Positions 82-24,563 of a stretch of 64,000 nt of DNA are shown piece after piece. The stretch spans positions 71,156 to 135,155 of the forward strand of contig CAZRBB010000004.1 in the NCBI GenBank assembly GCA_964598205.1, in the 5' to 3' direction. This stretch comes from an uncultured Candidatus Saccharibacteria bacterium (GTDB taxonomy: Bacteria > Patescibacteriota > Minisyncoccia > CAIUEV01 > JAHKAQ01). Numbering within the stretch: the stretch's first letter is position 1; each line of letters starts with the position of its first letter. A program made the position numbers and the translations under genes. The notes under the pieces are model-generated. The model was not told the DNA's origin, did no database searches, and saw only the letters and a program-made list of their open reading frames with translations.

Positions 82-305
82 CTTTTTCCAAACCAATGTT
101 CTTAGAGGAGGCTCCTTGTTCCCGCTAACACAGACCAGAGGAATATATCTATTCAGTAGACAAGGCTCTTAGTCTACTGAATAGATATATTCCTCTGGTC
201 TGTGTAGAGCTTTAAGCTTTTTAGGCGAAGTAAAACAGGAACAAGGTGGAGTGAGGCCCGGTCGAGGCCGAGCGTACTCCGAGAAGAACATTGGTTTGGA
301 AAAAG
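82..305 (+). repeat. Hairpin (MITE-like) repeat element, copy A, with a nested palindrome inserted at its centre
   Basis: About 140-bp element with conserved core gaggaggctccttgttcccgc...aacaggaacaaggtggagcgaggcccggtcgagg(c/a)cgagcgtactcc. The same element recurs at 1417-1567 (inverted) and 24424-24563. Copy-specific perfect inverted flanks ctttttccaaaccaatgttctt / aagaacattggtttggaaaaag. Confidence 0.75.
129..204. repeat. 76-bp near-perfect palindrome nested inside copy A (33-bp arms, loop aaggctcttag)
   Basis: cacagaccagaggaatatatctattcagtagac-aaggctcttag-gtctactgaatagatatattcctctggtctgtg. It is absent from the other two element copies at the corresponding position. The 18-nt core agacaaggctcttagtct is shared with the palindrome at 38131-38200. 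Confidence 0.8.
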
Positions 306-391
306 AAATAAAGAAATATAAAGTTGACAGGGAGGAGTTTTGGTAATTACAATGGATGTAAAGTTTTTTTATAAAAATAATAAAGAAATAA

Positions 392-1366
392 ATGAACAGG
401 TTAAAAGTAGAGATTTGGGGAGGACTGTTTTTGGTTTTTTCTTTCTTATTTTTAATGCCTCTAGGAGTAAAGGCGGCGGGAGAAGAATTGCCGGCGGTTG
501 GAGATCCTTTTTGGGATGTAATGGCGCAGATTAATCGTCCAGATGATTCCACTTGTACTGCCAAGGCGACTGCTATTTTAGAAACTAACAACATTCCCGG
601 GGGAGCCCAAAGAGCGACAGCTACTTGTGCGGGGATTGCTGGAATTGTGACCGACATGCAATCTGATTTAAATCGAGAAGGTGTTAGCACTAATCTTTTT
701 AGCGAGACAAACTGGCATCATGTAGATAATTTATATTTTGACCAAAGCAATGGCCGAATAGAATTTACCAACGAAGTAGATTTTATGAGTCGGAGCTTTA
801 TGTTGCTTTTAAGTAATATGGTTACGCGGTTGGATTTTTCCCAAAACGAAACGACTTTTGATGCTGATATTGTTGGAGGAATGAGGGATGCTGGATCGGT
901 AGTAACTATGCGCAATGTTTCGGATTTTTCTTCTCCAGAAATTTTAGTAGATGGAGCAGGAGACGCCGGTGGAGTGGTTTCTGGAATGACTTACAATCAA
1001 AATGCCAACACCATTGTTTTTAATGCGGCTCACTTTACTACCTTTAAGGCAGTAGAAGGAGGCGATTCTTCTGATGCGCCTAGAATTACTAAAATATCTA
1101 CCACCAAGCTTGTAAGTAAAAATGGTAAAGAAAGGATCCGAGTTTCTATTGAAGGCAAGCGCTTTGATAAAAAAATGGAAGTTAAATTAGGAAGCGTTGA
1201 AGCCTATTCGGTTCACTGGAAAAATAAAAATAAAGTAACAGCTTATTTTTCGGTCAAAGAAGTGTTAAAAAAATCTGGGAAAACTTCTTATTTTAAGGTG
1301 AAGAATGTGGATGGATTGGGCGATAAATACAAAAAACAGCTCAATATTTTAACGGTAGGGGAATAG
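392..1366 (+). CDS. Secreted hypothetical protein (N-terminal signal peptide; C-terminal Lys-rich beta/Ig-like region)
   Basis: ORF of 324 aa. Hydrophobic N-terminus LFLVFSFLFLMPLGVKAAG. No recognisable catalytic motif. Bracketed by inverted copies of the hairpin repeat element. Confidence 0.45.
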   Translation: MNRLKVEIWGGLFLVFSFLFLMPLGVKAAGEELPAVGDPFWDVMAQINRPDDSTCTAKATAILETNNIPGGAQRATATCAGIAGIVTDMQSDLNREGVSTNLFSETNWHHVDNLYFDQSNGRIEFTNEVDFMSRSFMLLLSNMVTRLDFSQNETTFDADIVGGMRDAGSVVTMRNVSDFSSPEILVDGAGDAGGVVSGMTYNQNANTIVFNAAHFTTFKAVEGGDSSDAPRITKISTTKLVSKNGKERIRVSIEGKRFDKKMEVKLGSVEAYSVHWKNKNKVTAYFSVKEVLKKSGKTSYFKVKNVDGLGDKYKKQLNILTVGE

Positions 1367-1416
1367 AAAATCAATCTCTGGCTAATCTTTATTTCTAAAG
1401 CGGGAATAATTTTAAC

Positions 1417-1567
1417 ATTCCTCTTGAGCTAATATCCTTCTCGGAGTACGCTCGCCCTCGACCAGTTCTCGCTCCACCTTGTTCCTGTTCTGCTTTGTCT
1501 AAAAAAACTTGAAGTTTAATAGGCGGGAACAAGGAGCCTCCTCTAAGGACATTAGCTCAAGAGGAAT
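1417..1567 (-). repeat. Hairpin (MITE-like) repeat element, copy B, inverted relative to copy A
   Basis: Reverse complement carries the same conserved core (ggaggctccttgttcccgcc ... ggaacaaggtggagcgagaactggtcgagggcgagcgtactcc). Embedded in copy-specific inverted flanks attcctcttgagctaat / attagctcaagaggaat. Confidence 0.75.
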
Positions 1568-1578
1568 GGAGCTTGGAT

Positions 1579-4500
1579 TTAAAATTGTTCTTTGTTTTTA
1601 ATAAATGACGCGAAGAGGACAGGGACAATAAAGAGAGTTAAGAACGAAGAAAGCATTAAGCCAAAGATAATGGCGCCGCCTAGGGCGCGCCAAACCTCGT
1701 TAGAAAGAGTGACCGGGATAATTCCTAGAATGGTGCAGAGGGAGGTGATAAAGATAGCTTCTATCCGAGATTTACCGGCATCTACAATAGCTTCTTTAAA
1801 AGGAATTTTGCTTTTTAAGTTAAGGTTTATTTTGTCTATTAGGATAATGGCGTTTTTAACGACGATTCCGAATAGGGCTAAGATACCGATTAAACCAGGG
1901 AAGCTGAGCGTAATACCAAAAACTGCCATTCCCAAAAAGACACCAATTAAGGCCAAAGGAAGGGTGACTAAAACAATCAAGGCTTTAATAAAAGAGTCAA
2001 ATTGAATGATTAGAGTGGAAACAATTAAGATGGCAGCAATAATCATAGCCGTGATAATGGATTTTACCGATTCGGTGTTTTGTTCATTTTCTCCTCCGTA
2101 GACCAGGGTGTAACCTTCTGGTAATTGATAACCTTCTTTTACCTTTTTTTGAAATTCAGAAAGAATAAAGTTGGAGCGGGTTTTACCTTCGGCACTGGCC
2201 GAAAGAAGGACCGCTCTTTTTTGATCGGTTCTGGAAATTGATTCTACGGACGGGTCTAATTTTATTGTGGCAACATCTTTTAAGAAGACGGGTTGGTTTT
2301 GGAGATTAGTTATTTTTAAATCTTGTAGGGCTTTTAGGGTGGGTATTTGATCTTTGGCAAAACGACTTACAATGTCTATCTCCTCGTTTTCTTTAATAAT
2401 GGTGCTGATTTTTATTCCGGAAACAGCTAAGCGAAGAATCCCTCCAACTGAAGCGGCATTCAAGTTATAAAGTTCTAATTTTTCGTGGTTAAGTTTAAAA
2501 GTATACTGTGCTGGTGCCTCTTTGAGCGATGTTTTAACATTGATTGCTCCGGGAATAGAGGCAAGGATTGGTTTTAAATCTTGAGATATTTTATCTAGGG
2601 TTTGCAGATCTTCGCCAACAACTCTGGCTTCGAAGGAAGCACCAGATGGTGGACCACTCTTGGCTGATTCCACACTGACAGAGGAAAGACCACTGACGCC
2701 AGAAAGATCCTGGCGAATTTTTTGGGCTAGTTCGTAAGATTTTAGAGATCGTTTTTCTTTTAGGGTAATGGTAATGCCGGCTAGGTGGGAGTTTCCTTGG
2801 GAAACCGTTGTGCCACCATCGGGAGAAGCACCGGCTTGGCCAACAATTGTGGCAAAGTTTTGAATGTCTGGGTATTTTTCTAGTCGTTCTTCTACTTTTG
2901 CGGTGAGTTCATTGGTTTTATCTAAATTAAAACCGATAGGTGCTTGGAGATTGATGTAAAGCATGTCTTCGTCTGAAGCAGGAAAGAACTCTGTTTTAAC
3001 AACACCTAGAACTGGAAGCAGAACGGATACTACAAAGATAAGGAGGGTTGAAGCAATTACAAGGAACCGGCTTTTTTTAGAAGCCAATGTTCGGCGCAAA
3101 TATTTTTCGTAAACAGGAATAACTTTTTCAAAACAGAGAATTCCGTGGATTAAGCGACTAATTAAATCTTTTTCTTCTCCTTGGGCTTGTTTTTTTAATT
3201 TTTCTTTGATTAATTCGTCACTCCTCCATTCTTCCTCGGCTAGTTTTTGATTGTTTTCTAATCTTGTTTTGCCGTTTCTTTTGGCGTACCACCAGCCGAT
3301 AACTATAAGGACAAGGAAGGCGAGCAGAGAAGCACTAAGGCCCCAAATTCTTTGGACCTTTAATCCCCAGCCAACAATAATTAAGAATAGAAGAACATAA
3401 AATAAGAGTAAGTTTTTGGTGAGGCGAATACGCTCCAAGACGGCGGCCAAGGGGTGATTGATCATTAGGGCGATTAGGAGAGAAGAAACAAGAGTTACAG
3501 AAACAGTGATGGGAATGGAGCGAATAAAGGAGCCAATAATGCCAGTGGAAAGAAGTAGTGGTAAAAAGGCAAAGGTGGTGGCTAGGGTAGTAGAAAGAAG
3601 TACGATTTTAAAATCGTTTAGAACCAAGAGTACGGCTTCTTCTGGAGTAAATTTACCACTCTTCATGTATTGTTTGGTGGCGCTGACTACCACAATGGCG
3701 TCGTCAACTAAAAGTCCAAGCGCTAAAAGCAAAGAAAAGATAGAAAGAAAGTTTAAGGTAATGCCCGTTAAAAGCATAACGCCAAAAGTGGCAAAGAAAA
3801 CTAAGGGAATGGCCAGACCGGCTACCAGTGCTTCTTTTAGGCCGACTATTAGAAACAGAACGCCCATTACCAAAACAATGGTGATTAAAAAATCGTGGGT
3901 TAATTGTTTAAAATCGTGGTCAATGATTTTGGCAAAGTCGGTGGTTACTTCGTAAGACATTCCTTTAGGAAATGTTTTTAAAAGTTCTTCAATGGTTTTT
4001 TTAGCTTCTTCGGTGGTAGCAATAATGGAGCCGCCACTTTTTTTAACAATATCTAAATTAACGGCTTCTTTGGCGGGTGAGCCGTTAGCGGAAAGGCGGG
4101 AGTAGGTGGTTTTTTTAATGGCTTGTTCTTTTACTTGGGCAATATCTTTTAGGTAAACGATTGCTCCTGCTTGGGTATGAGTAAGGGGGAGATTTTTTAA
4201 TTCTTCTTGGGAGAAAACTCGAGCGTCGGTTCTTACGGTGTAGTTAAAGGATTCGCCTTCAAAGTTTCCGCTGGGAATTGCGGTGTTGGCGGTGGCGACT
4301 AATTGGTTAATTTGAATGGGGGATAGATTGTAAAAGGTTAACTTGTTGGGATCATAAGCAATGGAAAATTCTTTTTCTAGGCCACCGGAAATATGGACTT
4401 CTCTTACTCCGGGGATTTTTTCTAAGCCATCTTTTATTTTTTCGGCATAGCCACGAAGCAAAAATCCGTCTTCTATGCCGGTTAGAGATACGGAAAAAAT

Positions 4501-4992
4501 AGGTTCATCGCTAAAGGAAATTTCTTTAGCTTCTGGAGTTTCTACTTCTTGAGGGAAGTCCTTGATTTCGGCAACCTTATCTCGTAATTTCCTTAAAACA
4601 TCTTCTTGATTTTCTTTGGTGTCGAATTCTACGGAAATTGCGGAAAAAGAATTAGCCGAACTAGAAGTTATTTTTTTTACTCCCTTAATGCTGGAAACAG
4701 CAGTTTCTATTTTTTTGGTAACTAATTCTTCTACATCTTCTGGTGAAGCGCCTGGAAAAACAGCGGTGACAATAGCATAAGGGATTTTAACTTCTGGATT
4801 TGATTCGCGAGGAAGATTAAAAAAAGAATAAATTCCCCAACCGGTAAGAAGGATGATTAAAAGAATGACCGTGCGGAAATTAGACACAAAGAAATTGAGC
4901 CAACTTTTTCTTAACTCTGGATTAAATTCCAGTTGTTCTAAGTAGCGATGATCGGAAGATTGATCCTGTTCTTTTTTAGGGTCACAACTCAT
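1579..4992 (-). CDS. RND-family efflux transporter permease (AcrB/HAE1-like)
   Basis: 1137 aa. 12-TM architecture with two large extracytoplasmic loops. N-terminal pattern typical of AcrB-like pumps. Overlaps the upstream membrane-fusion gene by 4 nt (operon). Confidence 0.85.
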   Translation of the reverse strand: MSCDPKKEQDQSSDHRYLEQLEFNPELRKSWLNFFVSNFRTVILLIILLTGWGIYSFFNLPRESNPEVKIPYAIVTAVFPGASPEDVEELVTKKIETAVSSIKGVKKITSSSANSFSAISVEFDTKENQEDVLRKLRDKVAEIKDFPQEVETPEAKEISFSDEPIFSVSLTGIEDGFLLRGYAEKIKDGLEKIPGVREVHISGGLEKEFSIAYDPNKLTFYNLSPIQINQLVATANTAIPSGNFEGESFNYTVRTDARVFSQEELKNLPLTHTQAGAIVYLKDIAQVKEQAIKKTTYSRLSANGSPAKEAVNLDIVKKSGGSIIATTEEAKKTIEELLKTFPKGMSYEVTTDFAKIIDHDFKQLTHDFLITIVLVMGVLFLIVGLKEALVAGLAIPLVFFATFGVMLLTGITLNFLSIFSLLLALGLLVDDAIVVVSATKQYMKSGKFTPEEAVLLVLNDFKIVLLSTTLATTFAFLPLLLSTGIIGSFIRSIPITVSVTLVSSLLIALMINHPLAAVLERIRLTKNLLLFYVLLFLIIVGWGLKVQRIWGLSASLLAFLVLIVIGWWYAKRNGKTRLENNQKLAEEEWRSDELIKEKLKKQAQGEEKDLISRLIHGILCFEKVIPVYEKYLRRTLASKKSRFLVIASTLLIFVVSVLLPVLGVVKTEFFPASDEDMLYINLQAPIGFNLDKTNELTAKVEERLEKYPDIQNFATIVGQAGASPDGGTTVSQGNSHLAGITITLKEKRSLKSYELAQKIRQDLSGVSGLSSVSVESAKSGPPSGASFEARVVGEDLQTLDKISQDLKPILASIPGAINVKTSLKEAPAQYTFKLNHEKLELYNLNAASVGGILRLAVSGIKISTIIKENEEIDIVSRFAKDQIPTLKALQDLKITNLQNQPVFLKDVATIKLDPSVESISRTDQKRAVLLSASAEGKTRSNFILSEFQKKVKEGYQLPEGYTLVYGGENEQNTESVKSIITAMIIAAILIVSTLIIQFDSFIKALIVLVTLPLALIGVFLGMAVFGITLSFPGLIGILALFGIVVKNAIILIDKINLNLKSKIPFKEAIVDAGKSRIEAIFITSLCTILGIIPVTLSNEVWRALGGAIIFGLMLSSFLTLFIVPVLFASFIKNKEQF

Positions 4993-6089: not shown

Positions 6090-6368
6090 TAGAGGGTGTT
6101 AAACTTAAAAAAAATTCCCCAAAAGGGAACCTTTAATTTAACTCCATTTTAAGGATTAAGACAAGACCATTAGTTAATTTTTAATTTCGAATTTTGAATT
6201 TCGATTAAAGATCAAATTTTAAATTTTAAGGTAACTTTTACGAATTAACAATTTCGAATTTTGAATTTTGTAAGTTGTGTTTGTGGTGGTTGTCTTTTTA
6301 GAATAAAATACGAAAAATAGTTTAGGATGATAGCTAATAAAAATCGCTGAAGAAGTTTTTGTCCAATA

Positions 6369-7448: not shown

Positions 7449-7607
7449 TTTGTGCTTGAATTATAATTTTTTTTAGATTTTAAGCGGAAAAAGTGTTTAT
7501 AAATGACTTGTGGTAAAAGTCTTTTTTTGTTATCATTTACCCAGCGAATCCAGAGTAAAAAAGGGGGAAAAGCCTTGAGAAAGAAATAAAGATTCAAACA
7601 AAAAAGG

Positions 7608-16600: not shown

Positions 16601-18164
16601 TGCTGGTTTAAAAGAAAATGGGACCGACAATATTGCGTCTGGTTATTTAGGGTTTTACACCGGTCGTACTGGAGATGCCAATGCCTTGGAAAAAATGAGA
16701 ATTACAAGCACTGGCAACGTCGGCATCGGGACGACGGGACCGGTAGAGGCTTTGGATGTTTTGGGAAAAATAAAAGCAAGCAGTTCGGTTCAAGCAAATG
16801 GCGTAGCAATAGGTGGATTAAACGGCCTTTATTATAGTTCTTCCACAAGGGGTAAATATGGTTTTGGTTCTGTGACAGCGCTAGGAGCTTATCCACTCGA
16901 TTTATCTTCTGGTGATGTTACGACGTATACTGATGGATATATCAAATTCAGTACCGCCGGAACAGAAGCGATGCGAATTCAATCAAGTGGCAACGTCGGC
17001 ATCGGGACGACGGGACCAGGTGGTAGACTTCATATCGCAGATGGAATTACGGGCAATGACGCGACATATCGGGGAAAGTTAATTATTGAGAGCGGGCAAA
17101 CAGATAATGCCAGTAATGGATTGGAATTTAAAGCCAGCGCAGGGGCGAGCGGGTATGGTTATCGTTTGGCAACCGTTTATCCTACTTCTGGCATTGACCT
17201 TCGTTTTCAATCCAGACAAAATTCAGCTACTTGGTCTGATGTAATGACAATAAATACAGTCGGCAACGTCGGCATCGGGACGACGAATCCGGGGTATAAG
17301 TTGCAAGTTAGACCGGCTACTGATGTCAATCTTGGTTTTGGAAGTAATGCTGTTGGTGGTTTGCTAAATGTGGCTAATGATGCCGCATCAGTTGTTGATT
17401 TGACAACTAATGCGTGGGAATATCACTTTCAATCAAATGGAAACGAAAGGGTTACAATTCTCAACGGCGGCAACGTCGGCATCGGGACGACGGGGCCGGG
17501 GGCACGGTTAAATGTAGTTGATGTAAATTATGGATTTAATAATGTTGGAAATCTATTTATTCGCACTTCTGACGCACAGGCGGCAGACATTGGTGGAATG
17601 ATTGGACTGGGAGGTATTGGAAATGACGCAGGAACGGGAATTACTTCCTTTGCGACAATAGCAGGAAGAAAAGAAAATGGAACAACTTCAAATTACAGTG
17701 GATATTTGCAATTCTCAACATCTAATCCAGGAAGTACAAAGAATGAATGGATGCGAATCACAAGCACCGGCAACGTCGGCATCGGGACGACGGCACCCTC
17801 CCAAAAACTTCATGTTGAAGGTCACTGTCTTACCGGCGACACCCTAATCGCTGTTCGTCGTAAAAAAAGACGAAATTCTGAAAACGGAGAAAATGAAATT
17901 GACCCAGATGACCTAGACTTTTCTTTATCCGATTTTGCGTCTTCTAGCGATCAAGAAACAGAAGACTGTATCCTAGTACCAATTTGCAACATTCTCCCCG
18001 GAGACGAGGTTTTATCGCTCAATGAGGAGACAAATCGCACCGAGTATCACCCCATAAATGGCCTCCTAGACATGGGCATTCAAGAAATTTATCAAATTCG
18101 CACTAAGTCTGGACGGGTAATTCGGACTACCGGAAATCATCCGTATCTGGTAAAAATGAACTGA
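7608..18164 (+). CDS. Giant (3518 aa) tail-fibre-like repeat surface protein = N-extein fused to the N-terminal half of an intein
   Basis: N-terminal signal/TM anchor. Tail-fibre-type motifs (ILPLANGGTN...). About 23 modules each starting GNVGIGTT(A/S/G/N)P..KL.V. Last 112 aa are Hint N-terminal blocks A (CLTGDTLI) and B (TGNHPYL). Confidence 0.85.
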   Translation: MTVRKQKKGGINGFQPLGVWGLFIVLGISLVMVFGGNSVWGAAEGTEGTEITEGTVWGRFWSGVDQGVTSFKEGFLATTNNLKSYLGTSGQFIARFGKEKNEKEAEELASVIASQKMEKWLEWFSKNGERLEEIANGENFNNLYLSGAIDGQNIANRSLNGNLKIIPGSITGLVIANGSVSKEDILWRGITSVNLHANAVTTRIIKDGTIIGADLSDDLSFSTTGTIHADNINGNHLIVKDGSTLSGDTVFNGGAFSHMGTTFLVNETGDATFDSDAVTTFSGSRLELVADGGGVTITYPDGQTFQLKDRTTRIETLANGSLILGNDSDATTVDGSVINLSGNTVINGTITGNITDNASNAFDLQEGTNKYLNISTVDGSEKIDFGNTTLNPSYEFLGTGATTLGGNLTVNGALIVGGGTAVAGHFLPGSNNVYNLGSNTYRWANLYLGGETLHLGASITDEAVVSYDTTINILNIGTDATTNGDIAFFSDDLYLDKSSGNVGIGTTDPGAKLDVAGVATFRGNLLFSTDNTLDIGANGATRPRTGYFGTSVVAPNFTGLASSATILATARDLYGFSFNGSVGTVSGINIIASSYGGTGNGFTKFTGPTTAEKTFTLPDANAIIARTDAGQTFTGVNIFTSPTFTTSIVPTINDGTTIGTTTLQFSDLFLASGATINYANGDTTLTHSTGILTLGTGTLKITTPTNTATSVATIDGMQTLTNKTLTASNNTLGGVTMTLGTDATGDIYYRNVSGYLTRLGIGTSNQILHGGTTPSYSAISLTGDITGILPLANGGTNKNITASSGAIIFSDTDSMELTLVGSSGQILVSQGAGTPIWSTPTYPSASGSAGKIIRSNGANNIYSTAAFADTYTASNLLYSNGDNTVQGLATANNGVLITGVTGVPSISSTIPVVTQQNITNVNSALVTGLLQITTTTGALTSVTTSAGIDALISNNTGSGLLVFNDGPTFIAPTLGVATATSINGLTINTTTGTLAISNLKTLTASDSTTLATNAITLAGGEVITFSPTNALSLLTTGATSVTLPTSGTLISTDQTVGQTIGLTGSRLTKLWATNIESTNAPTVLGSAVYYTGGTDVSLADGGTNASLTANNGGIFYSTGTAGAILAGTSTANQILLSGSLTTPVWSTATYPVTTMANQLLYSSALNTVTGLTTANSGVLVTNATGNPSFLGSLTNGQLVVGSTGAIPVLATLTGTDNQIVVTNGAGTITLSTSQSINTTSTPQFARIGLGVSADTTNILTATSVSTTDLSKTLNISHTGAITGTGYAGYFSKTGASTTNVGLYTIATGATNNYALQIDSAVAGANNYTIYANGTAQSYFAGNVGIGTTAPSSLLSVGGAGSSSYSISGIGSQSGIYGSASAGYTGVYGLSTSGAGISGSSTSGVGGYFTSSVGYALITGNGNVGIGTTAPESKLHVSADGAVQIFMGDLYSDLSYNTPEFSGRRARGTQSLPSAVLAGDTLMLVGARGYMDTGGFSANKAVIHMYAAENFTSTTNGTYITFSTTPIGSTSRAVRMTIGDAGNVGIGTTSPGAKLNIKSNNDASALKLTSSLGGTMMDLYELSDGRIQFNLYDGSGITKVRLDGNADNYITGGNVGIGTTGPSALLHVGSGGTPGYATTGDAYFQNDVEIDGTLYTAGLSVLGSIIPATDDTYDLGSSSYRWRDLYLGPTSLHLVSTVGETTTARDWKLSIQETDGTSEGNLRIMEGATEIMNIQPGGNVGIGTTGPGAKLNVVGGSAGTNTGIFRIENNTNASANTGASVEFYSYDNTPAQVEMGRIGTLVTTGTAGAASSDLAFSARNSGTLTEWMRIKGSGNVGIGTTGPATKLQIAGTGSTNGLSFGDAADVILYRNSSTQLRMNSDLRTSGSSGLTVDGPAFSLGGFNTLYNAASGLQFKANATSQMQLFASGGLALGSTYWSTDPGAGNLTIQGNVGIGTTAPGAALDVIGTGIFQYAALENEGEFLRISRTSQTTRYSSLWARQSVTKANNYIGFRVYDGNSTDYAPVEMMRITGSGNVGIGTTNPTAKLEIGGDNNGLKISGATYVSAELLDGGSNDSGYLSLYRAGVKAFSIGANDTYFNYGNVGIGTTGPAQKLHVFGATPQVEIDSSSGTNPSLFLTTTNDTTQGIKFSYDQGAGDGYIDNVWNNAAGDLFFRLRTLGTPVDVLSLKASGNVGIGTTAPVSKFHLYDSTGSGLSIDTGNGYANLYFLDGGVERWRFRNDGATDDFHLMEDASDIRLTVQEGGNVGIGTTSPLSSFYVGSTTPTSLSYALGNWNSYKAAIVDTFNYASVDDEHTSFLSDLTVNSTVNSSEQMAAIAASITVSTASTADTGSLRTIWSNLQHDGTGTVAAARLFNGELANKSTGTMTKADGLGVAFRNTGGGIISDLRGVNIIDLVNTSGTITNTYGIYTGDLSLGTQTNMPFSFYASDSDTYNYFAGNVGIGTTAPVSKFHLYDSTGSGLSIDTGNGYANLYFLDGGVERWRFRNDGATDDFHLMEDASDIRLTVQEGGNVGIGTTGPLVKLHITTDDVNGNGIRIQNDNALGTWKYGTLAMMGQTGNSIVDWPNALVIEGAGNGGTVISSAAGDIKFNPGRIQGMIVKQTTGNVGIGTTAPGFRLDVPAVSASNYDVAKIGGFVIARAGTDVSNLLITGASWAGGSTLTATATTYASYQQTSGNHYFYTATGQTVGNAVTTVIPMTIVGNGAVANTLYLTAGNVGIGTTSPTQALQITGSQFQQLSLQTTGAYTTKTYFANYAAIGNLNSYWSMNRNIGTGVFDNIELPAAAIAMNGSTGNSSIQFYTAAANNTAPSVRMTIDNSGNVGIGTTSPGDKLSVDGTTYGTTISVTGRSASWPGNATDLSKLNFNGLVGASGGTLASIATRFGNSGSDFSSQLLFSTTDASFVLQERMRINNLGNVGIGTTAPGALLHVGPNSVVYQPTVGTKQLILSGAGNTNAIDNGTMMIFSGGYNSTLAQNATYGAIAGLKENGTDNIASGYLGFYTGRTGDANALEKMRITSTGNVGIGTTGPVEALDVLGKIKASSSVQANGVAIGGLNGLYYSSSTRGKYGFGSVTALGAYPLDLSSGDVTTYTDGYIKFSTAGTEAMRIQSSGNVGIGTTGPGGRLHIADGITGNDATYRGKLIIESGQTDNASNGLEFKASAGASGYGYRLATVYPTSGIDLRFQSRQNSATWSDVMTINTVGNVGIGTTNPGYKLQVRPATDVNLGFGSNAVGGLLNVANDAASVVDLTTNAWEYHFQSNGNERVTILNGGNVGIGTTGPGARLNVVDVNYGFNNVGNLFIRTSDAQAADIGGMIGLGGIGNDAGTGITSFATIAGRKENGTTSNYSGYLQFSTSNPGSTKNEWMRITSTGNVGIGTTAPSQKLHVEGHCLTGDTLIAVRRKKRRNSENGENEIDPDDLDFSLSDFASSSDQETEDCILVPICNILPGDEVLSLNEETNRTEYHPINGLLDMGIQEIYQIRTKSGRVIRTTGNHPYLVKMN
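17826..18161 (+). other. Split-intein N-terminal fragment (IntN, about 112 aa) at the C-terminus of the giant protein
   Basis: Cys1 in CLTGDTLIAV (block A). TGNHPYLV (block B, conserved T..H). Followed directly by a stop codon. No intein C-terminal blocks in this ORF. Confidence 0.8.
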
Positions 18165-18193
18165 ACTTAAAAATTTTTAACTAAGTTTTCTTT

Positions 18194-19753: not shown

Positions 19754-19931
19754 ATTCAACCAACGCTTTTTTGATCTCCTCTTTTTTGGTAAAAAGATTA
19801 AAATCCAAAGATTGCCGGTGCCCAATGTGAAGAGCAATGGCGGTACCGCCAGCCAAACCAAAATCTCGGGAAAAATCACTAATTAATGGCAAGATTTTTA
19901 CTTGTTCGGAAGTTAAAATCTCAGTGTGCAT
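19737..19931 (-). pseudogene. N-terminal remnant of an AbiEii-family (DUF1814) nucleotidyltransferase toxin gene, truncated
   Basis: 64-aa ORF with LAGGTAIALHIGHRQSLDFNLF, resembling the AbiEii N-terminal GGTAL...R.S.DiDf motif. A stop follows and no downstream continuation exists in any frame of 60 aa or more. Overlaps the 3' end of the nuclease ORF. Confidence 0.35.
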
Positions 19932-20317
19932 GTTTGTTAAAATAAAGAGTGAAATAATTTTTTATTTCTGGTCGGTAATTGGTTCTTTTTTTTGATTTTT
20001 TGGTTTGGTTTTTAAAGATAGTCGCTATTTTTTGGAGGCCAACCACGGTCAAAAGTTTTTAAAAATCCTGCCAATCGCCGTAATTCAAAACGGTTTCTGT
20101 GATTGATTCAACAGACAAAACGGAAGGGTCTTTAACTGACCAAAAAAGCATTTTTCTTTGGACAGCAAATTGTTTCAGCTCTTTATCCATGATAGAATAA
20201 TAGCATATTTGGTTGGAAAAATCATTGGTTTGTGATTAAAGTTTTGTTTTTAATATCTTCTTAAATTATTTTGGTAATATTAAGTTAAGATTTTTGGTGA
20301 GGAGATGATAAAAATCA

Positions 20318-20767
20318 ATGTATCGCAATTATGTAAAAAGAGCGGTTAAGAATTTTACCGATTTAGATGTTTACCAAAAGCTTTTGGAAGGAAGTGTTTT
20401 TGTGGCAAAAGTGGTGGTGCCGGCTTTTTGGGAAAAACAAACGGAGACAAAAAAAGACAAAACGGCGGAGCTGATTATAGAAAAGCTAACAGTGCATACT
20501 CTTTATCTTCCAGAGCTGATTGCCAAGGCTCATTCTGTTCGTTTTGGAGCGGGGGAGCAATGTTTGGCATTTTTAGAAGAAGCAATGCTTGGCTGTAATT
20601 TAGCGGTGGTCTATTTGGAACAAACGCGGGATATTTGCGAAACTGGGTTAGAAACCGAACAATTTTCCGAACAGATTAAAAAATATTTTCAGGTAAGACA
20701 AAAAGTGTTAAACTTGCAAAGAGTTTGGAAGAAATTTATAGAAATCAAAAAACAAGAACAAAACTAA
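20318..20767 (+). CDS. Four-helix-bundle protein (TIGR02436 / 23S-rRNA-IVS-protein-like; Avd-like fold)
   Basis: 149 aa, all-helical. N-terminal FTDLDVYQK...resembles the F.DL.VWQKA signature of this family. Stop lies 4 nt before the IntC gene start. Confidence 0.4.
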   Translation: MYRNYVKRAVKNFTDLDVYQKLLEGSVFVAKVVVPAFWEKQTETKKDKTAELIIEKLTVHTLYLPELIAKAHSVRFGAGEQCLAFLEEAMLGCNLAVVYLEQTRDICETGLETEQFSEQIKKYFQVRQKVLNLQRVWKKFIEIKKQEQN

Positions 20768-20771
20768 AATT

Positions 20772-21059
20772 ATGTTTGGTTTTTTAAAGAAAGTTGCTAA
20801 AAAATGGCTCAAGGTTTCCCAGTTAAAAGTGGGAGCAAAAATTGCTGTGCCCAGAGCAGCGGCAATGGCTGGTTATGGTGGACTGGTTGCTAATGATTCC
20901 TTACTAGAAGAAGGCGAAGGGGATTATATGTGGGACGAAATTACCGAAATTAAAAAAGTTGGTCGAGAAAGAGTTTACGACATTGAAGTAGACGGAACGC
21001 ATAATTTTATTGCGGGGAATATTAATAATAAATTATTCGGCGGAATTTTTGCTCACAAC
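20772..21059 (+). other. IntC (C-terminal intein half; 96 aa from the first ATG, 44 aa if translation starts at 20928)
   Basis: Terminal His-Asn (AHN) followed by +1 Thr. Block F VYDIEVDGTHNFIA. Confidence 0.75.
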
Positions 21060-22670
21060 ACCTATGTCACCGGCAACGTCGGCATCGGGACGACGACACC
21101 GACCTACCGTCTTCAACTCCCCAATGTAGGCGATGCTACCGGGCAGGGCCAAGCCAATGCTTGGGTAGCATATTCAGATAGAAGTTTAAAAGAAGAGGTT
21201 GATCCAATCACTAATGCTCTAAACAATGTTCTTCTCTTACAAGGAGTAGACTTTACTTGGAAGGGTCAAGGAATTAGAAGCTCTGGCTTTATTGCTCAAG
21301 ATGTAGAAGAGGTTATTCCTAGTCTAGTATCCACAGACATTAACGGAATTAAGTCTTTAGACTATGGAAGATTTACTCCTTACCTAGTAGAAGCAATCAA
21401 AACCCAACAACTAAACATTACTACTAACACGAGCCGTCTTGATCTCCTAGATCAAAAGATAATGGAAGAGGCGAGTGGTTCTTTAATCCTTAATGCTACT
21501 GGCAATAGTATCCAAGCCAAAGATCTCTTAGACGCTACCTTACAAGGTGTAGCTACTAAAGTTAAATCCGGCACTATTTCCGACACTGACTTTATTTTAC
21601 CGATCAATGGTTTAATGGCAGTAGACTCAGCTAATGGAAGGGTCTATTTCCGTTACGACAATGATTGGCATTATGTTAATCAAACAGGAGGCTTTCAGAT
21701 TCCTAATTACGAAACCGCTCCGTACGAAAAGCTATCTCAAAACTCTAAGATTAAAGAAAATGAAGCTCTTCCTTTTGAATCAAGTAACTATCCTCACTAC
21801 ATAACAGAAAAGTTAACTCCCGGAGAGCTTCTGATTCCTTTTGTAGATGAATACCTTCCAGACGGAGCTGTCCATGGTCTGTATGCTAGATTCGAAGATG
21901 TTAAAGAAAAAATGTTTACTCAAGAAAAGAGCCAGTTAGTAGATCTAGCCCTTAAAACCGCAGAGAACATAGAAACTATTAAAGAGTTTAAAGAATCAGT
22001 AGATAAAAACCTAGCCGTAATTTCTTCTAACTTTGAATCATTAGATAACAACATTGACCGAAACGAAAAGAATGTTGAAAGCTTAGAAACCAGAACAGAA
22101 GCTACAGAAGCTAAAAATAATGATCTATCTTCCCGAGTTTCTGTCTTAGAGTTTTCTCTTTCTGAATCCCAACTAGCCGGAGAGCGCTTAGAGTTCCTTA
22201 CCCAAATCTTAAACCCAGCTGAAGACGGAAGCCTGACTATTTACAATGATCTGAATTTAGAAGGCAGATTGAGCGCCGAGGAAGTGGTGCTTAACAAGAT
22301 CACTATTAAGACCGATTCCGAAGAAACCCGCACGGTAGGGCAGGCGGTGATTGTTGGATTAGCTAAAGATGAAGATGCTGATGGCAAAGACGACAACACC
22401 GGAGCCGATGGTAAGAGCGTGATTATAAAAACCAGAATGGTTACGGAAAGTTCCAAGATTTTTTTAACCTTTGAAAACAATCCTCAATCATTGTATTGGG
22501 CAGAAAAAGTAACCAATGAATCTGGTGCTCTTATTGGTTTTAAGATTCTTCTAAACAGTCCGGCGTCGGCGGATATTAAAGTTTCTTGGTGGATTCTAGA
22601 AGAAGACGATCCGGCCAAGCAAACAACAAGCACTCCGGTCATTCCTTCTTCCCAATCAGAAGCACTTTAA
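20772..22670 (+). CDS. Split-intein C-terminal fragment (IntC) fused to C-extein: final GNVGIGTT repeat, peptidase-S74 intramolecular chaperone domain, coiled coil and C-terminal beta domain
   Basis: Blocks F/G: ERVYDIEVDGTHNFIAGN ... GIFAHN | T. The C-extein starts TYVTGNVGIGTTTP using the same 23-mer as the giant gene. SDRSLKEEV...GFIAQDVEEVIPSLV...LDYGRFTPYLVEAIKTQQ matches the S74 (CIMCD) consensus. Internal starts at M32 and M53 (20928) would give an IntC of 44 aa. Confidence 0.8.
   Translation: MFGFLKKVAKKWLKVSQLKVGAKIAVPRAAAMAGYGGLVANDSLLEEGEGDYMWDEITEIKKVGRERVYDIEVDGTHNFIAGNINNKLFGGIFAHNTYVTGNVGIGTTTPTYRLQLPNVGDATGQGQANAWVAYSDRSLKEEVDPITNALNNVLLLQGVDFTWKGQGIRSSGFIAQDVEEVIPSLVSTDINGIKSLDYGRFTPYLVEAIKTQQLNITTNTSRLDLLDQKIMEEASGSLILNATGNSIQAKDLLDATLQGVATKVKSGTISDTDFILPINGLMAVDSANGRVYFRYDNDWHYVNQTGGFQIPNYETAPYEKLSQNSKIKENEALPFESSNYPHYITEKLTPGELLIPFVDEYLPDGAVHGLYARFEDVKEKMFTQEKSQLVDLALKTAENIETIKEFKESVDKNLAVISSNFESLDNNIDRNEKNVESLETRTEATEAKNNDLSSRVSVLEFSLSESQLAGERLEFLTQILNPAEDGSLTIYNDLNLEGRLSAEEVVLNKITIKTDSEETRTVGQAVIVGLAKDEDADGKDDNTGADGKSVIIKTRMVTESSKIFLTFENNPQSLYWAEKVTNESGALIGFKILLNSPASADIKVSWWILEEDDPAKQTTSTPVIPSSQSEAL
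21174..21420 (+). other. Peptidase S74 / C-terminal intramolecular chaperone autoproteolytic domain
   Basis: YSDRSLKEEVDPITNALNNVLLLQGVDFTWK...SGFIAQDVEEVIPSLVSTDINGIKSLDYGRFTPYLVEAIKTQQLN. The Ser-Lys dyad motif SD(R/K)xLK is conserved. Confidence 0.8.
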
Positions 22671-22835
22671 TTAATTCCGAATTTTGAAATTACGAATAAA
22701 GATTTTTCTTCTTGGTCTTCCTTAAAACCAATGCAATACTTCTTTTTTGATTCTTGTCTGTAAATTGTCAATTAAATATTTGTGTGTTTAGATAATTAAG
22801 AATCGATTAATTTTAAATTAAATAAATCTAAAATC

Positions 22836-23303
22836 ATGGAAAGAACTTTGGTCATTATTAAACCAGATGCGCTTCAAAGAAATTTGATTGGGGAAATAAT
22901 TTCTCGTTTTGAAAGAAAGGGATTAAAAATTATTGGCATGAAGATGATGTCGGTAGATAATGTTAAGCTAGATGAACATTATGGCAAGTATTCTGACAAG
23001 CCATTCTTTGTTCATCTTAAAAAATTTATGCAGAGTTCGCCAGTAGTGGCAATGGTTTGGGAAGGTGTGGAGGCCGTTTCAGCGGTGCGCTTAATTGCTG
23101 GATCCACCAAAGGAAGAGAGGCAGATGCTGGCACAATCCGAGGCGATCTTTCTATGAGTCTACAAACCAATGTGATTCATGTTTCCGATCCCAAAGAAGA
23201 TCCAGAAGCGGAAATTAAGAGATTTTTTGGGGACGACGAACTTTTTGATTATGAAAAGATAGACATGTTTTATCTTTATTCTCCAGACGAATTAGAAAGC
23301 TAA
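22836..23303 (+). CDS. ndk: Nucleoside diphosphate kinase
   Basis: ERTLVIIKPDALQRNLIGEIISRFERKGLKIIGMK; NDK fold signature. Confidence 0.9.
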   Translation: MERTLVIIKPDALQRNLIGEIISRFERKGLKIIGMKMMSVDNVKLDEHYGKYSDKPFFVHLKKFMQSSPVVAMVWEGVEAVSAVRLIAGSTKGREADAGTIRGDLSMSLQTNVIHVSDPKEDPEAEIKRFFGDDELFDYEKIDMFYLYSPDELES

Positions 23304-23427
23304 GTTGACACAACGGTTTTCCTTTGCTAATTTTCTTTCATTGGAAGGACTTTTGCGTACGGAAAAGCCCTACTTTATTGGAAGGACCTTTGTTCCCTCG
23401 TTGTTTATTTGATTCATAAATTAGCCA

Positions 23428-23859
23428 ATGCCCACCATTAATCAACTAGTTAGGAAAGGACGCCAAGATAAAATTAGGAAGTCAAAATCGCCTGCCTTGC
23501 AGCGCTTTTTTAATACATTAAACAATAGGCCGGTAAAGTATAAAAAGGGTAGCCCGTTTAAAAGAGGTGTCTGTGTTAAGGTTTCTACTACTACTCCTAA
23601 AAAACCAAACTCTGCTTTACGAAAAATTGCCAGAGTACGGTTGACTAATCAAATGGAAGTCACGGCTTACATTCCGGGTATTGGCCACAACCTTCAAGAA
23701 CACTCCATTGTAATGATTCGCGGTGGTCGGGTAAAAGATTTACCCGGTGTTCGGTACCATATTGTGCGGGGCGTCCTAGACTCTGAAGGCGTTCATGACC
23801 GCAAACAAGGTCGCAGTCGTTACGGTGCCAAGCGGCCTAAAAAAGAGAATAAAGATTAA
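23428..23859 (+). CDS. rpsL: 30S ribosomal protein S12
   Basis: [12 protein letters not shown]...; conserved S12 sequence. Confidence 0.95.
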
Positions 23860-23885
23860 TAATTTAGTTTAGTCATTACTTTAAT

Positions 23886-24332
23886 ATGGAAAAGCAATAC
23901 ACTCCCGATCCCAAGTTTCATAATGTGCTAGTTGGTCGCTTGATTGGTCAATTAATGAAGCGAGGTAAAAAAATTAAAGCCGAAAAAATTATTTACGATT
24001 GTTTTGATTTAATAAAAGAAAAATCCAAACAAGATCCAATAGATGTTCTAGACGAAGCGATTCGTAACATTGCTCCTTCTCTAGAAGTAAAAGCCAAGCG
24101 GGTGGGTGGCGCTAACTATCAAGTGCCAGTTCCGGTAATTGGAGAAAGACGAATTACTTTAGCTTTGCGTTGGTTGCTTTTGGCAGTAAGAAACAAAAAA
24201 GGAAAATCTACCGCTCAAAAACTGACCGCCGAAATCCTAGACGCGGCTCATCGCCAAGGAGCGGCTGTTAAAAAAAGAGAAGACGTTCACCGAATGGCAG
24301 AATCAAACAAAGCCTTTGCGCATTTTGCCTAA
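23886..24332 (+). CDS. rpsG: 30S ribosomal protein S7
   Basis: Conserved S7 sequence. Position between rpsL and fusA. Confidence 0.9.
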   Translation: MEKQYTPDPKFHNVLVGRLIGQLMKRGKKIKAEKIIYDCFDLIKEKSKQDPIDVLDEAIRNIAPSLEVKAKRVGGANYQVPVPVIGERRITLALRWLLLAVRNKKGKSTAQKLTAEILDAAHRQGAAVKKREDVHRMAESNKAFAHFA

Positions 24333-24423
24333 ACCAAAAGACTATCATCTTTTTAATTTTTAATTTCGGATTTTGAATTTTGATTAAAATTGGAATTTAT
24401 AATTTAAAAAGATTTTCTATTTT

Positions 24424-24563
24424 CCATAAGCCAATGTTTTTTGAGGAGGCTCCTTGGTCCCGCCCACTAAACTTCAAGCTTTTTAGGTAAAGTAGAACAG
24501 GAACAAGGTGGAGCGAGGCCCGGTCGAGGACGAGCGTACTCCAAAAAAGACATTGGCTTATGG
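24424..24563 (+). repeat. Hairpin (MITE-like) repeat element, copy C, in the rpsG-fusA intergenic region
   Basis: Same conserved core as copies A and B. Copy-specific inverted flanks ccataagccaatg / cattggcttatgg. The inverted symmetry continues outward to about 24360-24640 (gaattttgattaaaatt / aattttaatcaaaattc). Confidence 0.75.

What the first reader, a model, noticed from the sequence alone, without database searches (positions are those of the whole stretch)
82..24563. Hairpin (MITE-like) repeat family inserted at the centres of pre-existing, copy-specific palindromes
Three copies of a roughly 140-bp element share a conserved core that includes a GC-rich arm (gaggcccggtcgagg.cgagcgtactcc). 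Copies lie at 82-305, 1417-1567 (inverted) and 24424-24563. In every copy the sequence immediately outside the element forms a perfect inverted repeat of 14-22 bp that differs between copies: ccaaaccaatgttctt..., attcctcttgagctaat..., ccataagccaatg.... A simple explanation is insertion into the loop of existing hairpins such as terminators or REP-like palindromes. Alternatively, compensatory covariation is maintaining a structured RNA. Copy C sits in the rpsG-fusA spacer inside a palindrome of about 280 bp.
Basis: seen in the sequence. Interest (0 to 1): 0.6.

Follow-up and report, generated by a model that had tools for sequence, protein, structure and literature searches.

The report
Hairpin repeat family in a Moranbacteria genome
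Three copies of a roughly 150-bp non-coding hairpin repeat sit between genes of an uncultured Moranbacteria genome; it resembles the small palindromic repeats known from other bacteria, except that the two stem arms differ from copy to copy yet stay complementary.

Summary
Three copies (78-309 +, 1416-1568 -, 24418-24569 +) share a directional core of about 105 nt, enclosed by near-perfect inverted arms of 24-26 bp. There is no Rfam match, no coding potential and no further copy in 74 kb of this species or 119 kb of seven relatives.

The arms are not unrelated pre-existing hairpins. A and C arms are homologous, and all three share the inner 11 bp and an outer TTCC. The arms differ 28-40% between copies, as much as the least constrained part of the core, yet each copy has only 1-2 non-Watson-Crick pairs. 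Complementarity is therefore actively maintained. Three core blocks are nearly invariant (p = 7e-5) but show no covariation and no unusual stability.

Copy C lies at the centre of an AT-rich palindrome that has uninterrupted paralogues at 38039-38145 and 50549-50642. Copy A carries a nested hairpin of a second family.

Best reading: a Correia/ERIC-like palindromic repeat whose arms co-evolve, probably by hairpin-templated template switching. When transcribed it forms a long double-stranded RNA stem, which may be an RNase III target. A functional structured RNA is not excluded. Moderately interesting.

The parts
78..309 (+). H1 copy A. Arms 78-103 / 284-309; core 104-283, interrupted by the nested hairpin at 126-207.
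   Evidence: Covariance-model score 162 bits. Lies between the start of the DUF4446 gene (window 48, minus strand) and the promoter-like site at 324-353.
126..207 (+). H2 hairpin nested inside copy A. Perfect 34-bp stem (128-161 / 172-205) with centre GAC-AAGGCTCTTA-GTC. Absent from copies B and C.
   Evidence: (I10).
1416..1568 (-). H1 copy B, inverted relative to A. Arms 1416-1439 / 1545-1568. Lies between the convergent 324-aa ORF (392-1366, +) and the RND transporter gene (1579-4992, -).
   Evidence: Covariance-model score 168 bits.
24418..24569 (+). H1 copy C. Arms 24418-24442 / 24545-24569. Lies in the 310-nt rpsG-fusA spacer, in the same direction as the operon.
   Evidence: Covariance-model score 173.5 bits.
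24344..24408 (+). Left arm of the AT-rich palindrome that encloses copy C. It is one unit of the TTAATTTTTAATTTCGAATTTTGAATTTCGATTAAA repeat.
   Evidence: (D6, D7, I6).
24582..24636 (-). Right arm of the same AT-rich palindrome: an inverted copy of the unit.
   Evidence: (I6: 53 nt, 81% complementary).
38039..38145 (.). Uninterrupted inverted pair of the AT-rich unit with a 3-nt centre. Serves as an 'empty-site' analogue within the same genome.
50549..50642 (.). Uninterrupted inverted pair of the AT-rich unit: 45-nt arms and a 4-nt centre. A second 'empty-site' analogue.
38124..38207 (-). Second H2 hairpin. Same 16-nt centre (GACAAGGCTCTTAGTC) as the one in copy A but an unrelated 32-37-bp stem. 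Lies between convergent genes (rplO-like, +; Peptidase_C39-like, -).

Best explanation
H1 is a lineage-specific, non-coding palindromic repeat of about 150 bp, of the same general kind as Correia/CREE, ERIC and other MITE-like elements. It has a directional core of about 105 bp with three nearly invariant blocks. The core is enclosed by 24-26-bp inverted arms that belong to the element.

Shown:
- It occupies at least three intergenic sites.
- At least one copy (C) landed at or near the centre of an existing AT-rich palindrome.
- Copy A has in turn been hit by another hairpin element (H2).
- The arms diverge between copies as fast as the least constrained part of the core, yet remain complementary within each copy.

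Inferred:
- Complementarity is kept mainly by one-step DNA events, in which a change in one arm is copied to the other through hairpin-templated template switching. Selection for a foldable hairpin may add to this.
- The invariant core blocks are sequence-specific recognition sites for whatever propagates or uses the element.
- Copies that are transcribed (C, inside the rpsL-rpsG-fusA-tuf operon) fold into a stem of at least 22 bp without a U tract. This is not a terminator but a typical RNase III substrate, which would uncouple or tune upstream and downstream cistrons, as demonstrated for Correia elements.
For: - Three copies against 0 expected. No Rfam family matches. No consistently open reading frame.
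- Absent from 119 kb around fusA in seven relatives whose EF-G is 78-83% identical. Their rpsG-fusA spacers range from 47 to 461 nt. This sporadic distribution is typical of mobile repeats.
- Arms are homologous between copies and change on both sides: 12 of 22 pairs changed on both sides, 0 broken, 0 of 500 shuffles as high.
- Pairwise identity is 60-72% in the arms, 63-78% in the central core and 94-97% in the blocks. Blocks have 4 of 65 variable columns against 13 of 32 in the centre, p = 7e-5.
- Each stem has only 1-2 non-Watson-Crick pairs. Compensated indels and a compensated 5-to-7-nt replacement can be read directly.
- The core alone is not unusually stable (z = +0.3, +0.8 and -2.5) and has no covarying pair. 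What is conserved there is sequence, not demonstrable structure.
- C is centred in an AT-rich palindrome that has uninterrupted paralogues. The H2 hairpin is nested in A.
- The stems are flanked 5'-T-run ... A-run-3', and no terminator-like site is found (and direct reading).
- Other core families with the same architecture occur in Moranbacteria ribosomal-protein operon spacers.
- Template switching can create and repair perfect stems in one event (PMC8794818).
- Correia elements are 26-bp inverted repeats plus a directional core, 104-157 bp long, and are cleaved by RNase III when transcribed (PMC2649163).
Against: - Only three copies were available. The genome-wide count is unknown.
- No target-site duplication, no transposase or integrase in the window, and no presence/absence polymorphism: all conspecific contigs are 100% identical. 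Mobility is therefore inferred only from the sporadic distribution among distant relatives and from the nesting.
- Near-invariant blocks are equally what a functional RNA or a protein-binding site would show.
- All four transition mismatches in helices P1-P4 are G-U on the sense strand.
- Across 13 hairpins in operon spacers, G-U outnumbers A-C 13 to 4 on the transcribed strand (p = 0.025). This points to RNA-level selection. The count is confounded by leading-strand mutation bias and by my hairpin finder, which counts G-T as a pair.
- RNase III cleavage is pure inference.
Confidence: 0.45

Rival explanations
1. H1 is a family of paralogous structured RNAs, either small RNAs or cis-acting mRNA elements. 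The conserved blocks are functional loops and junctions of a three-way junction. The long closing helix P1 is free to vary as long as it pairs, and selection acts on the RNA.
For: - P1 shows compensated changes (12 of 22 pairs) and 99% of cells are paired, against 37-51% for slid controls.
- The four transition mismatches in P1, P3 and P4 are all G-U on the sense strand.
- The variable N of GGTCGAGGNCGAGCG falls in a predicted tetraloop.
- The blocks are far more conserved than the rest.
- C has the same direction as its operon.
- There is a G-U excess on the transcribed strand across similar hairpins.
Against: - No covariation occurs in any inner helix.
- The core alone folds no better than shuffled sequence in two of three copies.
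- The arms evolve as fast as the least constrained region. That is faster than stepwise compensatory evolution under purifying selection would predict.
- Stems of 22-34 bp with almost no mismatch or bulge are unusual for bacterial functional RNAs.
- Copy A lies upstream of the -35 box of the only strong promoter-like site (324-353), 30 nt from a divergent gene. Its sense strand may therefore not be transcribed.
- There is no Rfam match.
- It is absent from seven relatives, so it is not a conserved regulator of fusA.
Confidence: 0.27
2. A mobile core of about 105-125 bp without arms of its own inserts into the loops of unrelated pre-existing hairpins, such as terminators or REP-like palindromes. 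The outer stems are then target DNA.
For: - C lies at the centre of an AT-rich palindrome with uninterrupted paralogues.
- B lies between convergent genes, where a terminator hairpin would be expected.
- B's outer arm (CTCTTGAGCTAAT) differs from those of A and C. It shares GCTAAT with the H2 hairpin stem at 38131 and with the 'empty' hairpin in the rpsG-fusA spacer of relative L016.
- Relatives L016 and L028 carry other hairpins in the same spacer.
Against: - The arms of A and C are homologous over their whole length, although the two sites are unrelated.
- All three copies share the inner 11 bp and the outer TTCC.
- No uninterrupted hairpin with these arm sequences occurs in 74 kb.
- None of the stems has a terminator U tract.
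- The GCTAAT match is a single hexamer and could be chance.
Confidence: 0.15
3. The arms are rebuilt at every transposition. Only one arm plus the core is transferred, and the second arm is synthesised by fold-back (hairpin-primed) copying. Every new copy is therefore born with perfect arms, whatever mutations its source carried.
For: - It explains perfect arms together with 28-40% divergence between copies, and the compensated indels, without any selection.
- The same signature appears in the H2 family, whose three unrelated stems of 32-37 bp surround one conserved centre.
Against: - No enzyme or intermediate is known for such a mechanism in bacteria.
- The single non-Watson-Crick pairs in B and C show that the arms are not strictly perfect.
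- It cannot be distinguished from in-situ template switching with three copies.
Confidence: 0.1
4. Chance similarity or an assembly artefact, such as a chimeric inverted join.
For: Short-read contigs of this species often break inside the element.
Against: - 0 matches in shuffles.
- Identical sequence in independent assemblies from at least five JGI samples and several SRA runs, including contigs of 129 kb and 198 kb that read through all copies.
- The contig breaks are what a dispersed repeat produces.
Confidence: 0.01

Closest known systems
Correia repeat-enclosed elements (CREE / NEMIS) of Neisseria
   Same: - Non-coding and about 105-157 bp long.
- Inverted repeats of about 26 bp enclose a directional, characteristic core.
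- Length variants arise from internal insertions or deletions.
- Located in intergenic regions, including inside operons and 5' of genes.
- When transcribed, the inverted repeats form a hairpin that RNase III binds and cleaves (PMC2649163).
   Different: - Correia inverted repeats are conserved in sequence across hundreds of copies. H1 arms differ 28-40% between copies while staying complementary.
- Correia elements duplicate a TA target. No duplication is seen here.
- There is no sequence similarity, and the host is a CPR bacterium.
- Only three H1 copies are known.
- RNase III cleavage is not tested here.
ERIC / IRU and YPAL palindromic repeats of enterobacteria (from my own knowledge)
   Same: - Imperfect palindromes of about 127-170 bp in transcribed intergenic regions.
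- Some copies carry internal insertions at fixed points, as copy A does.
- Reported to change the stability of flanking mRNA segments.
   Different: - The whole ERIC sequence, arms included, is conserved between copies.
- There is no evidence that ERIC sits at the centres of other palindromes.
- Unrelated in sequence.
REP / BIME / REPIN elements and the insertion sequences that target them (IS1397, ISKpn1, IS110/IS1111-type; from my own knowledge)
   Same: - Hairpin-forming intergenic repeats.
- They provide a precedent for mobile DNA inserting specifically into the loops or centres of palindromic repeats, as inferred for copy C in the AT-rich palindrome.
   Different: - REPs are short (20-40 nt) with a conserved sequence and depend on a RAYT transposase.
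- The elements that target REPs are full insertion sequences encoding a transposase. H1 encodes nothing, and no RAYT or transposase was seen in the window.
Intervening sequences (IVS) of bacterial rRNA genes (from my own knowledge)
   Same: - Sporadically distributed inserts of 100-200 nt.
- They replace the apex of an existing helix with a long, nearly perfect extended stem.
- RNase III excises them from the transcript.
   Different: IVS occur inside 16S and 23S rRNA genes, not in mRNA spacers. Their stems are not reported as a dispersed repeat family with a conserved core.
Template-switch (quasipalindrome) mutation as a maker and keeper of perfect stems
   Same: It explains multi-base compensatory changes and perfect reverse-complement arms arising in single events (PMC8794818). 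This matches the compensated indels and the segment replacement in H1 arms.
   Different: It is a mutational mechanism, not an element family. Its operation here is inferred from the pattern only.

Membership tests
MITE (non-autonomous DNA transposon) | Small (under about 500 bp), non-coding, several dispersed copies | tested here: met
   150-230 bp, no consistently open frame, three dispersed copies.
MITE (non-autonomous DNA transposon) | Terminal inverted repeats with a family consensus, matching those of a parent insertion sequence | tested here: inconclusive
   Inverted arms are present in all copies. Only the inner 11 bp and an outer TTCC are shared; the rest differs with compensation. 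No parent insertion sequence is in the window.
MITE (non-autonomous DNA transposon) | Direct target-site duplication flanking the element | tested here: not met
   The flanks next to the arms share no direct repeat. They are A: TTGA / AAAG, B: TTAA / GAGC, C: TTTC / ATTC.
MITE (non-autonomous DNA transposon) | Presence/absence polymorphism between close strains | not testable with these tools
   All conspecific contigs are 100% identical. The nearest other genomes have only 83% identical EF-G. They lack the element but are too distant to align flanks.
Correia / CREE | 26-bp Correia repeat consensus at both ends and a TA target duplication; restricted to Neisseria | tested here: not met
   The organism is a Moranbacteria. 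There is no TA duplication. The arm sequences vary between copies. The architecture is only analogous.
Known RNA families (Rfam 15), including self-cleaving ribozymes, 6S, SRP, Y-RNA-like and ribosomal-protein leaders | Score at or above the family's gathering threshold | tested here: not met
   Only a tRNA at 51074-51156 passes the threshold in the window. At E up to 10 on 1-1700, the only hits are meaningless microRNA-like matches to the nested hairpin. The relatives' hairpin families also have no match.
Intrinsic (Rho-independent) terminator | GC-rich hairpin followed directly by a U tract | tested here: not met
   No terminator-like site at any copy. The stems are flanked 5'-T-run and 3'-A-run in A and C, which is the wrong polarity on both strands.
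REP / REPIN | Short conserved imperfect palindrome (often with a 5' GTAG) and a RAYT gene in the genome | not tested
   H1 is much longer and has a non-palindromic core. No Y1/HUH transposase appears among the genes annotated in the window and L011. The genome as a whole could not be searched.
Structured RNA (generic criterion) | Covariation supporting the helices, beyond what relatedness gives | tested here: inconclusive
   The outer helix has 12 of 22 pairs with double changes, and 0 of 500 shuffles reach this. The inner helices have 0 double changes. There are only three sequences. A DNA-level mechanism would give the same outer-helix pattern.

The most novel reading that the evidence does not exclude
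Moranbacteria genomes carry several unrelated families of 'structure-specified' hairpin elements. Those seen here are H1, H2 (centre AAGGCTCTTA) and H3 (in the ribosomal-protein operon spacers of L015 and upstream of the window). In each family a conserved core or centre is recognised by sequence. The long arms are free in sequence and are regenerated or corrected by hairpin-templated synthesis. The elements home to the apices of existing palindromes and so build nested, 'Russian-doll' palindromes. This would be a mode of propagation not described for bacterial repeats. If transcribed, the elements could also form a lineage-wide system of RNase III 'punctuation' in operons.
Probability: 0.15. 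Interest if true: 0.75.

Novelty: new variant of a known kind. Interest (0 to 1): 0.45.

Why it matters
Small palindromic repeats such as Correia, ERIC and REP elements are known to reshape operon expression. Almost nothing is described for the streamlined genomes of the Candidate Phyla Radiation.

Here the arms diverge as fast as unconstrained sequence yet stay complementary, including through compensated indels. This gives a clean natural case for asking whether 'compensatory evolution' of long stems is driven by selection on RNA or by one-step template switching in DNA.

The nesting is also informative. H1 sits inside an AT-rich palindrome and H2 sits inside H1. This suggests that palindrome centres are preferred landing or repair sites.

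If the stems are RNase III sites inside the str and S10 operons, they would affect the stoichiometry of translation factors and ribosomal proteins in these organisms.

Tried and rejected
- **Exact-pattern scans with the 3' core.** I scanned genome contigs, metagenome contigs and viral contigs. The only hits were chance matches in GC-rich coding DNA (L001-L003).
- **Spurious ORFs through other copies.** I searched the protein database with a concatenated six-frame translation of the element. Nothing came back.
- **Jumping to other loci of the same species.** I queried with a relative's GyrA and IleRS joined together. Only distant intein-containing GyrA proteins were returned. All three protein searches were then spent.
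- **Walking beyond the window.** About 9.6 kb upstream was gained (L011). It holds no further H1 copy but does hold an H2 and an H3-like element. Contigs end at the right edge, in a 213-bp tandem repeat.
- **Exact-protein look-ups for S7, S12 and RF1.** They returned only clonal contigs of the same species, so no close-strain empty site is available.
- **BLASTN of copy C against phage and plasmid collections.** No meaningful match.
- **An 18-mer of the H2 centre in viral contigs.** One chance hit in a coding region.
- **Rejected readings:**
  - Coding peptide: stops occur in every frame in at least one copy.
  - Terminator: no U tract.
  - Promoter inside the core: the hexamer spacing is wrong on inspection and the scan finds none.
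  - Relation between the H1 and H3 cores: the nhmmer profile finds none.
  - Composite transposon A-gene-B: noted but not tested.
Full report
**1. The observation**

The three copies exist as described. Each half of the conserved core occurs exactly three times in the 64-kb window and never in dinucleotide-preserving shuffles:
- GAGGAGGCTCCTTGTTCCCGC at 105(+), 1543(-) and 24443(+, one mismatch);
- GGTCGAGGNCGAGCGTACTCC at 260(+), 1463(-) and 24522(+).

A covariance model built from the three copies (R1) scores them at 162-174 bits. It finds no other copy in the window, even with all filters off. A core-only nhmmer profile also finds nothing else.

The element limits, arms included, are A 78-309(+), B 1416-1568(-) and C 24418-24569(+). 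The arms are:
- A: 26 bp, 25 Watson-Crick pairs, the inner 22 perfect;
- B: 24 bp, 23 Watson-Crick pairs plus one G-U on the sense strand;
- C: 25 bp, 23 Watson-Crick pairs plus one G-U and one A-A.

The whole elements fold far better than shuffled sequence, with z = -14.8, -6.7 and -5.6. Copy A is about 78 nt longer because a perfect 34-bp hairpin (128-205) sits inside its core.

The sequence is not an artefact. Identical copies are present in independent assemblies from several JGI metagenomes and SRA runs, including contigs of 129 kb and 198 kb that read through them. Short contigs break inside the shared core, as expected for a dispersed repeat.

**2. Organism and context**

The best EF-G matches are 78-83% identical. 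Those that carry a name are called Candidatus Moranbacteria or Patescibacteria. The window itself is not represented in the homologue search.

- Copy C lies in the 310-nt rpsG-fusA spacer and has the same direction as the operon.
- Copy B lies between the convergent 324-aa ORF and an RND transporter gene.
- Copy A lies between the start of a divergent DUF4446-infB unit (start codon at window 48) and a near-consensus promoter-like site at 324-353 (TTGACA-18-TACAAT). That site would serve the 324-aa ORF. The sense strand of A may therefore not be transcribed with that gene.

None of the annotated genes in the window or in the 9.6 kb upstream is a transposase or recombinase.

**3. What it is not**

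- There is no Rfam match at gathering thresholds. At E up to 10 there is no meaningful hit.
- No reading frame is open in all copies.
- It is not an intrinsic terminator. The scans find none, and in A and C the stems are flanked by a 5' T-run and a 3' A-run, the wrong polarity on both strands.
- Nothing similar appears among phage or plasmid records.

**4. Anatomy and evolution of the copies**

With the arms and the nested hairpin removed, the cores align over 105 columns. Three blocks are almost invariant: GAGGAGGCTCCTTGTTCCCGC, GAACAGGAACAAGGTGGAGCGAG and GGTCGAGGNCGAGCGTACTCC. They have 4 of 65 variable columns and 94-97% pairwise identity. The 32-column centre has 13 variable columns and 63-78% identity (Fisher p = 7e-5). 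The blocks are therefore under constraint.

The predicted fold has these parts:
- a long closing helix P1;
- a 3x3 purine internal loop (AGA/GAG);
- P2 (GGAG/CUCC);
- P3 (GCUCCUUGUUCC/GGAACAAGGUGGAGC, with a GGU bulge);
- a small hairpin P4 (CGGUCG-AGGN-CGAGCG).

Only P1 shows covariation. It has 12 of 22 pairs changed on both sides and none broken. The inner helices never covary. The core alone is not unusually stable on the sense strand, with z = +0.3, +0.8 and -2.5. An alternative two-hairpin fold competes with the predicted one. What is demonstrably conserved in the core is sequence, not structure.

**5. The arms belong to the element**

The 5' arms are:
- A: ATTACTTTTTCCA-AA-CCAATGTTCTT
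- C: TATTTTCCATAAGCCAATGTTTTTT
- B: CATTCCTCTTGAGCTAATGTCCTT

A and C are homologous throughout. They differ by two 1-bp indels and a few substitutions, every one mirrored in the 3' arm. B shares the inner CYAATGTYCTT and the outer TTCC, and has TCTTGAG where C has ATAAG, again mirrored.

Arm identity between copies is 60-72%, which is as low as or lower than the unconstrained centre of the core. If the two arms of a copy had drifted independently at that rate, each stem should carry roughly five or more mismatches. They carry one or two.

So perfection is not explained by recent origin from a common source. The arms co-evolve. Stepwise compensatory evolution under RNA-level purifying selection should make stems evolve more slowly than neutral sequence, and should rarely yield compensated indels without leaving bulges. 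One-step copying of a change from one arm to the other explains the pattern directly. [quoted passage not shown]

An alternative cannot be separated from this with three copies: the second arm may be resynthesised by fold-back copying at each transposition.

RNA-level selection is not excluded.
- All four transition mismatches in P1, P3 and P4 are G-U on the sense strand.
- Over 13 hairpins in co-directional spacers of these genomes, G-U outnumbers A-C 13 to 4 on the transcribed strand (p = 0.025).
- That count is confounded by leading-strand mutation bias (GC skew is positive across the window) and by my finder treating G-T as a pair.

**6. Insertion at palindrome centres**

The AT-rich sequence around C is a separate repeat family, with unit TTAATTTTTAATTTCGAATTTTGAATTTCGATTAAA. 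Copies lie at 6174, 6243, 24353, 24584(-), 38046, 50549 and 50581.

- At 38039-38145 and 50549-50642, two units abut head to head, with only 3-4 nt between the arms.
- At the rpsG-fusA spacer, the same inverted pair (24352-24404 / 24584-24636, 81% complementary) is separated by 179 nt. This consists of H1-C flanked by 13 and 14 nt of non-palindromic linker.

The simplest reading is that H1-C, together with its own arms, entered the centre of such a palindrome.

Conversely, copy A has received an H2 hairpin. H2 is a second family with three copies in this species: window 126-207(+), window 38124-38207(-) and L011 7254-7325(+). These share the centre AAGGCTCTTA; the two window copies share 16 nt, GACAAGGCTCTTAGTC. 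Their 32-37-bp stems are unrelated.

No uninterrupted hairpin carrying the H1 arm sequences was found in the 74 kb sampled.

**7. Relatives**

Seven fusA loci from genomes with 78-83% identical EF-G (119 kb in total) contain no H1. Their rpsG-fusA spacers are 47, 87, 144, 146, 237 and 461 nt, or contain an extra gene. The long spacer with H1 is therefore derived.

Several of these relatives carry other elements of the same architecture.
- L015 has three copies of an unrelated core of about 87 nt (H3) with 18-20-bp near-perfect arms. They lie in the rpsL-rpsG, tuf-rpsJ and rpsS-rplV spacers. An H3-like copy lies 2.6 kb upstream of the window (L011 6962-7088).
- The H3 arms are homologous across copies and genera, and 20 of 38 predicted pairs show compensated changes.
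- L016 and L028 have other long hairpins in the rpsG-fusA spacer itself.
- L019 has a 25-bp stem enclosing a 42-bp stem.
- None of these matches Rfam.

Long, near-perfect, sometimes nested hairpin elements in operon spacers are thus a recurrent and sporadically distributed feature of this clade. This argues for selfish or mobile repeats rather than ancient regulators.

**8. How it most likely works**

Shown:
- a dispersed non-coding repeat with a constrained directional core and co-evolving inverted arms;
- one copy centred in a larger palindrome;
- nesting of hairpin families;
- sporadic distribution among relatives.

Inferred:
- Spread is by an unidentified trans-acting function that recognises the invariant blocks.
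- Arm complementarity is maintained chiefly by template switching.
- Copy C at least is transcribed with rpsG and fusA, since no terminator lies between them. It would form a dsRNA stem of at least 22 bp, extendable by the AT-rich arms to about 290 nt.
- Such stems are the canonical substrate of RNase III. For the architecturally closest known elements, the Correia/CREE repeats, RNase III binding and cleavage of transcribed copies and effects on neighbouring genes are documented. Those repeats have 26-bp inverted repeats enclosing a directional core, are 104-157 bp long and are often 5' of genes or inside operons (PMC2649163).

I put this reading at about 0.45, a dedicated functional RNA at about 0.27, literal insertion of an armless core into unrelated hairpins at about 0.15, and arm regeneration at transposition at about 0.10.

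**9. Comparison and novelty**

H1 works like, and looks like, a Correia- or ERIC-type palindromic repeat. It is not a member of any named family.
- It shares no sequence with them and has no TA duplication.
- Its arms lack a fixed consensus.
- The MITE criteria of target-site duplication and conserved terminal repeats are not met or are inconclusive.

The unusual feature is arm sequence that is free but kept complementary, around an invariant core. It recurs in H2, and with more conserved arms in H3. I therefore rate H1 as a new variant of a known kind.

Interest is moderate.
- The sample is only three copies, and mobility, transcription and processing are all untested.
- The system would be a good natural test of template switching against RNA selection in stem evolution.
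- It is also a first look at repeat biology in CPR genomes.

**10. Limits**

The genome-wide copy number and the generality of the arm pattern remain unknown.
- All conspecific contigs are clonal, and the nearest other genomes are too distant for flank alignment. No true empty site could be examined.

Noticed in passing
window 126-207, window 38124-38207, L011 7254-7325: H2 is a second hairpin family. Three stems of 32-37 bp with unrelated sequence share the centre AAGGCTCTTA; the two window copies share 16 nt, GACAAGGCTCTTAGTC. Two copies lie between convergent genes and one is nested in H1 copy A. Why unrelated stems share one centre is unexplained.
   Followed up: partly
L015 8916-9042, 16525-16648, 20174-20298; L011 6962-7088: H3 is a third, unrelated family: a core of about 87 nt (CGAAATTT...AAATTTCAT) with 18-20-bp near-perfect arms. 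It lies in the rpsL-rpsG, tuf-rpsJ and rpsS-rplV spacers of a relative with a 1.2-Mb contig. An H3-like copy lies next to a tRNA gene 2.6 kb upstream of the window. 20 of 38 predicted pairs have compensated changes. There is no Rfam match.
   Followed up: partly
window 6174-6273, 24344-24408, 24582-24636, 38039-38145, 50549-50645: An AT-rich intergenic repeat unit (TTAATTTTTAATTTCGAATTTTGAATTTCGATTAAA). It occurs as tandem or head-to-head pairs, mostly just upstream of genes. It may be a promoter or UP-like module, or a REP-like palindrome.
   Followed up: partly
window 78-1568: The 324-aa ORF (392-1366; N-terminal hydrophobic segment, no Pfam match) is bracketed by H1 copies A and B in inverted orientation. 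A near-consensus promoter-like site (324-353, TTGACA-18-TACAAT) lies directly after A. Short-read contigs of exactly this unit (1.28 kb) recur in several samples. This could be a cassette or a recombination product.
   Followed up: no
window 7608-18164 and 20772-22670: A 3518-aa ORF carries at least 22 copies of a conserved DNA motif, GGCAACGTCGGCATCGGGACGAC (peptide GNVGIGTT), spaced 200-640 nt apart. The same motif occurs once in the neighbouring 632-aa protein, which has a Peptidase_S74 domain. The DNA-level conservation of the motif is unusually high for a protein repeat.
   Followed up: no
window 62986-63924: Four tandem copies of a 213-bp unit (76-87% identical) inside a gene at the right edge of the window. 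All assemblies of this species break there.
   Followed up: no
L016 9664-9729; L028 1335-1423; L019 13405-13579; L015 3950-4099: Other long, near-perfect and sometimes nested hairpins in relatives. Two of them lie in the rpsG-fusA spacer itself. The L016 stem (GGCTAATAATATCTTCT) resembles the arm of H1 copy B (GAGCTAATATCCTTCT). This may be chance.
   Followed up: partly
L015 9578-9898: In the closest relative, the rpsG-fusA spacer holds a 106-aa ORF with no Pfam match. In L029 a DUF1189 gene sits there. This spacer appears to be a hot spot for insertions in the clade.
   Followed up: no
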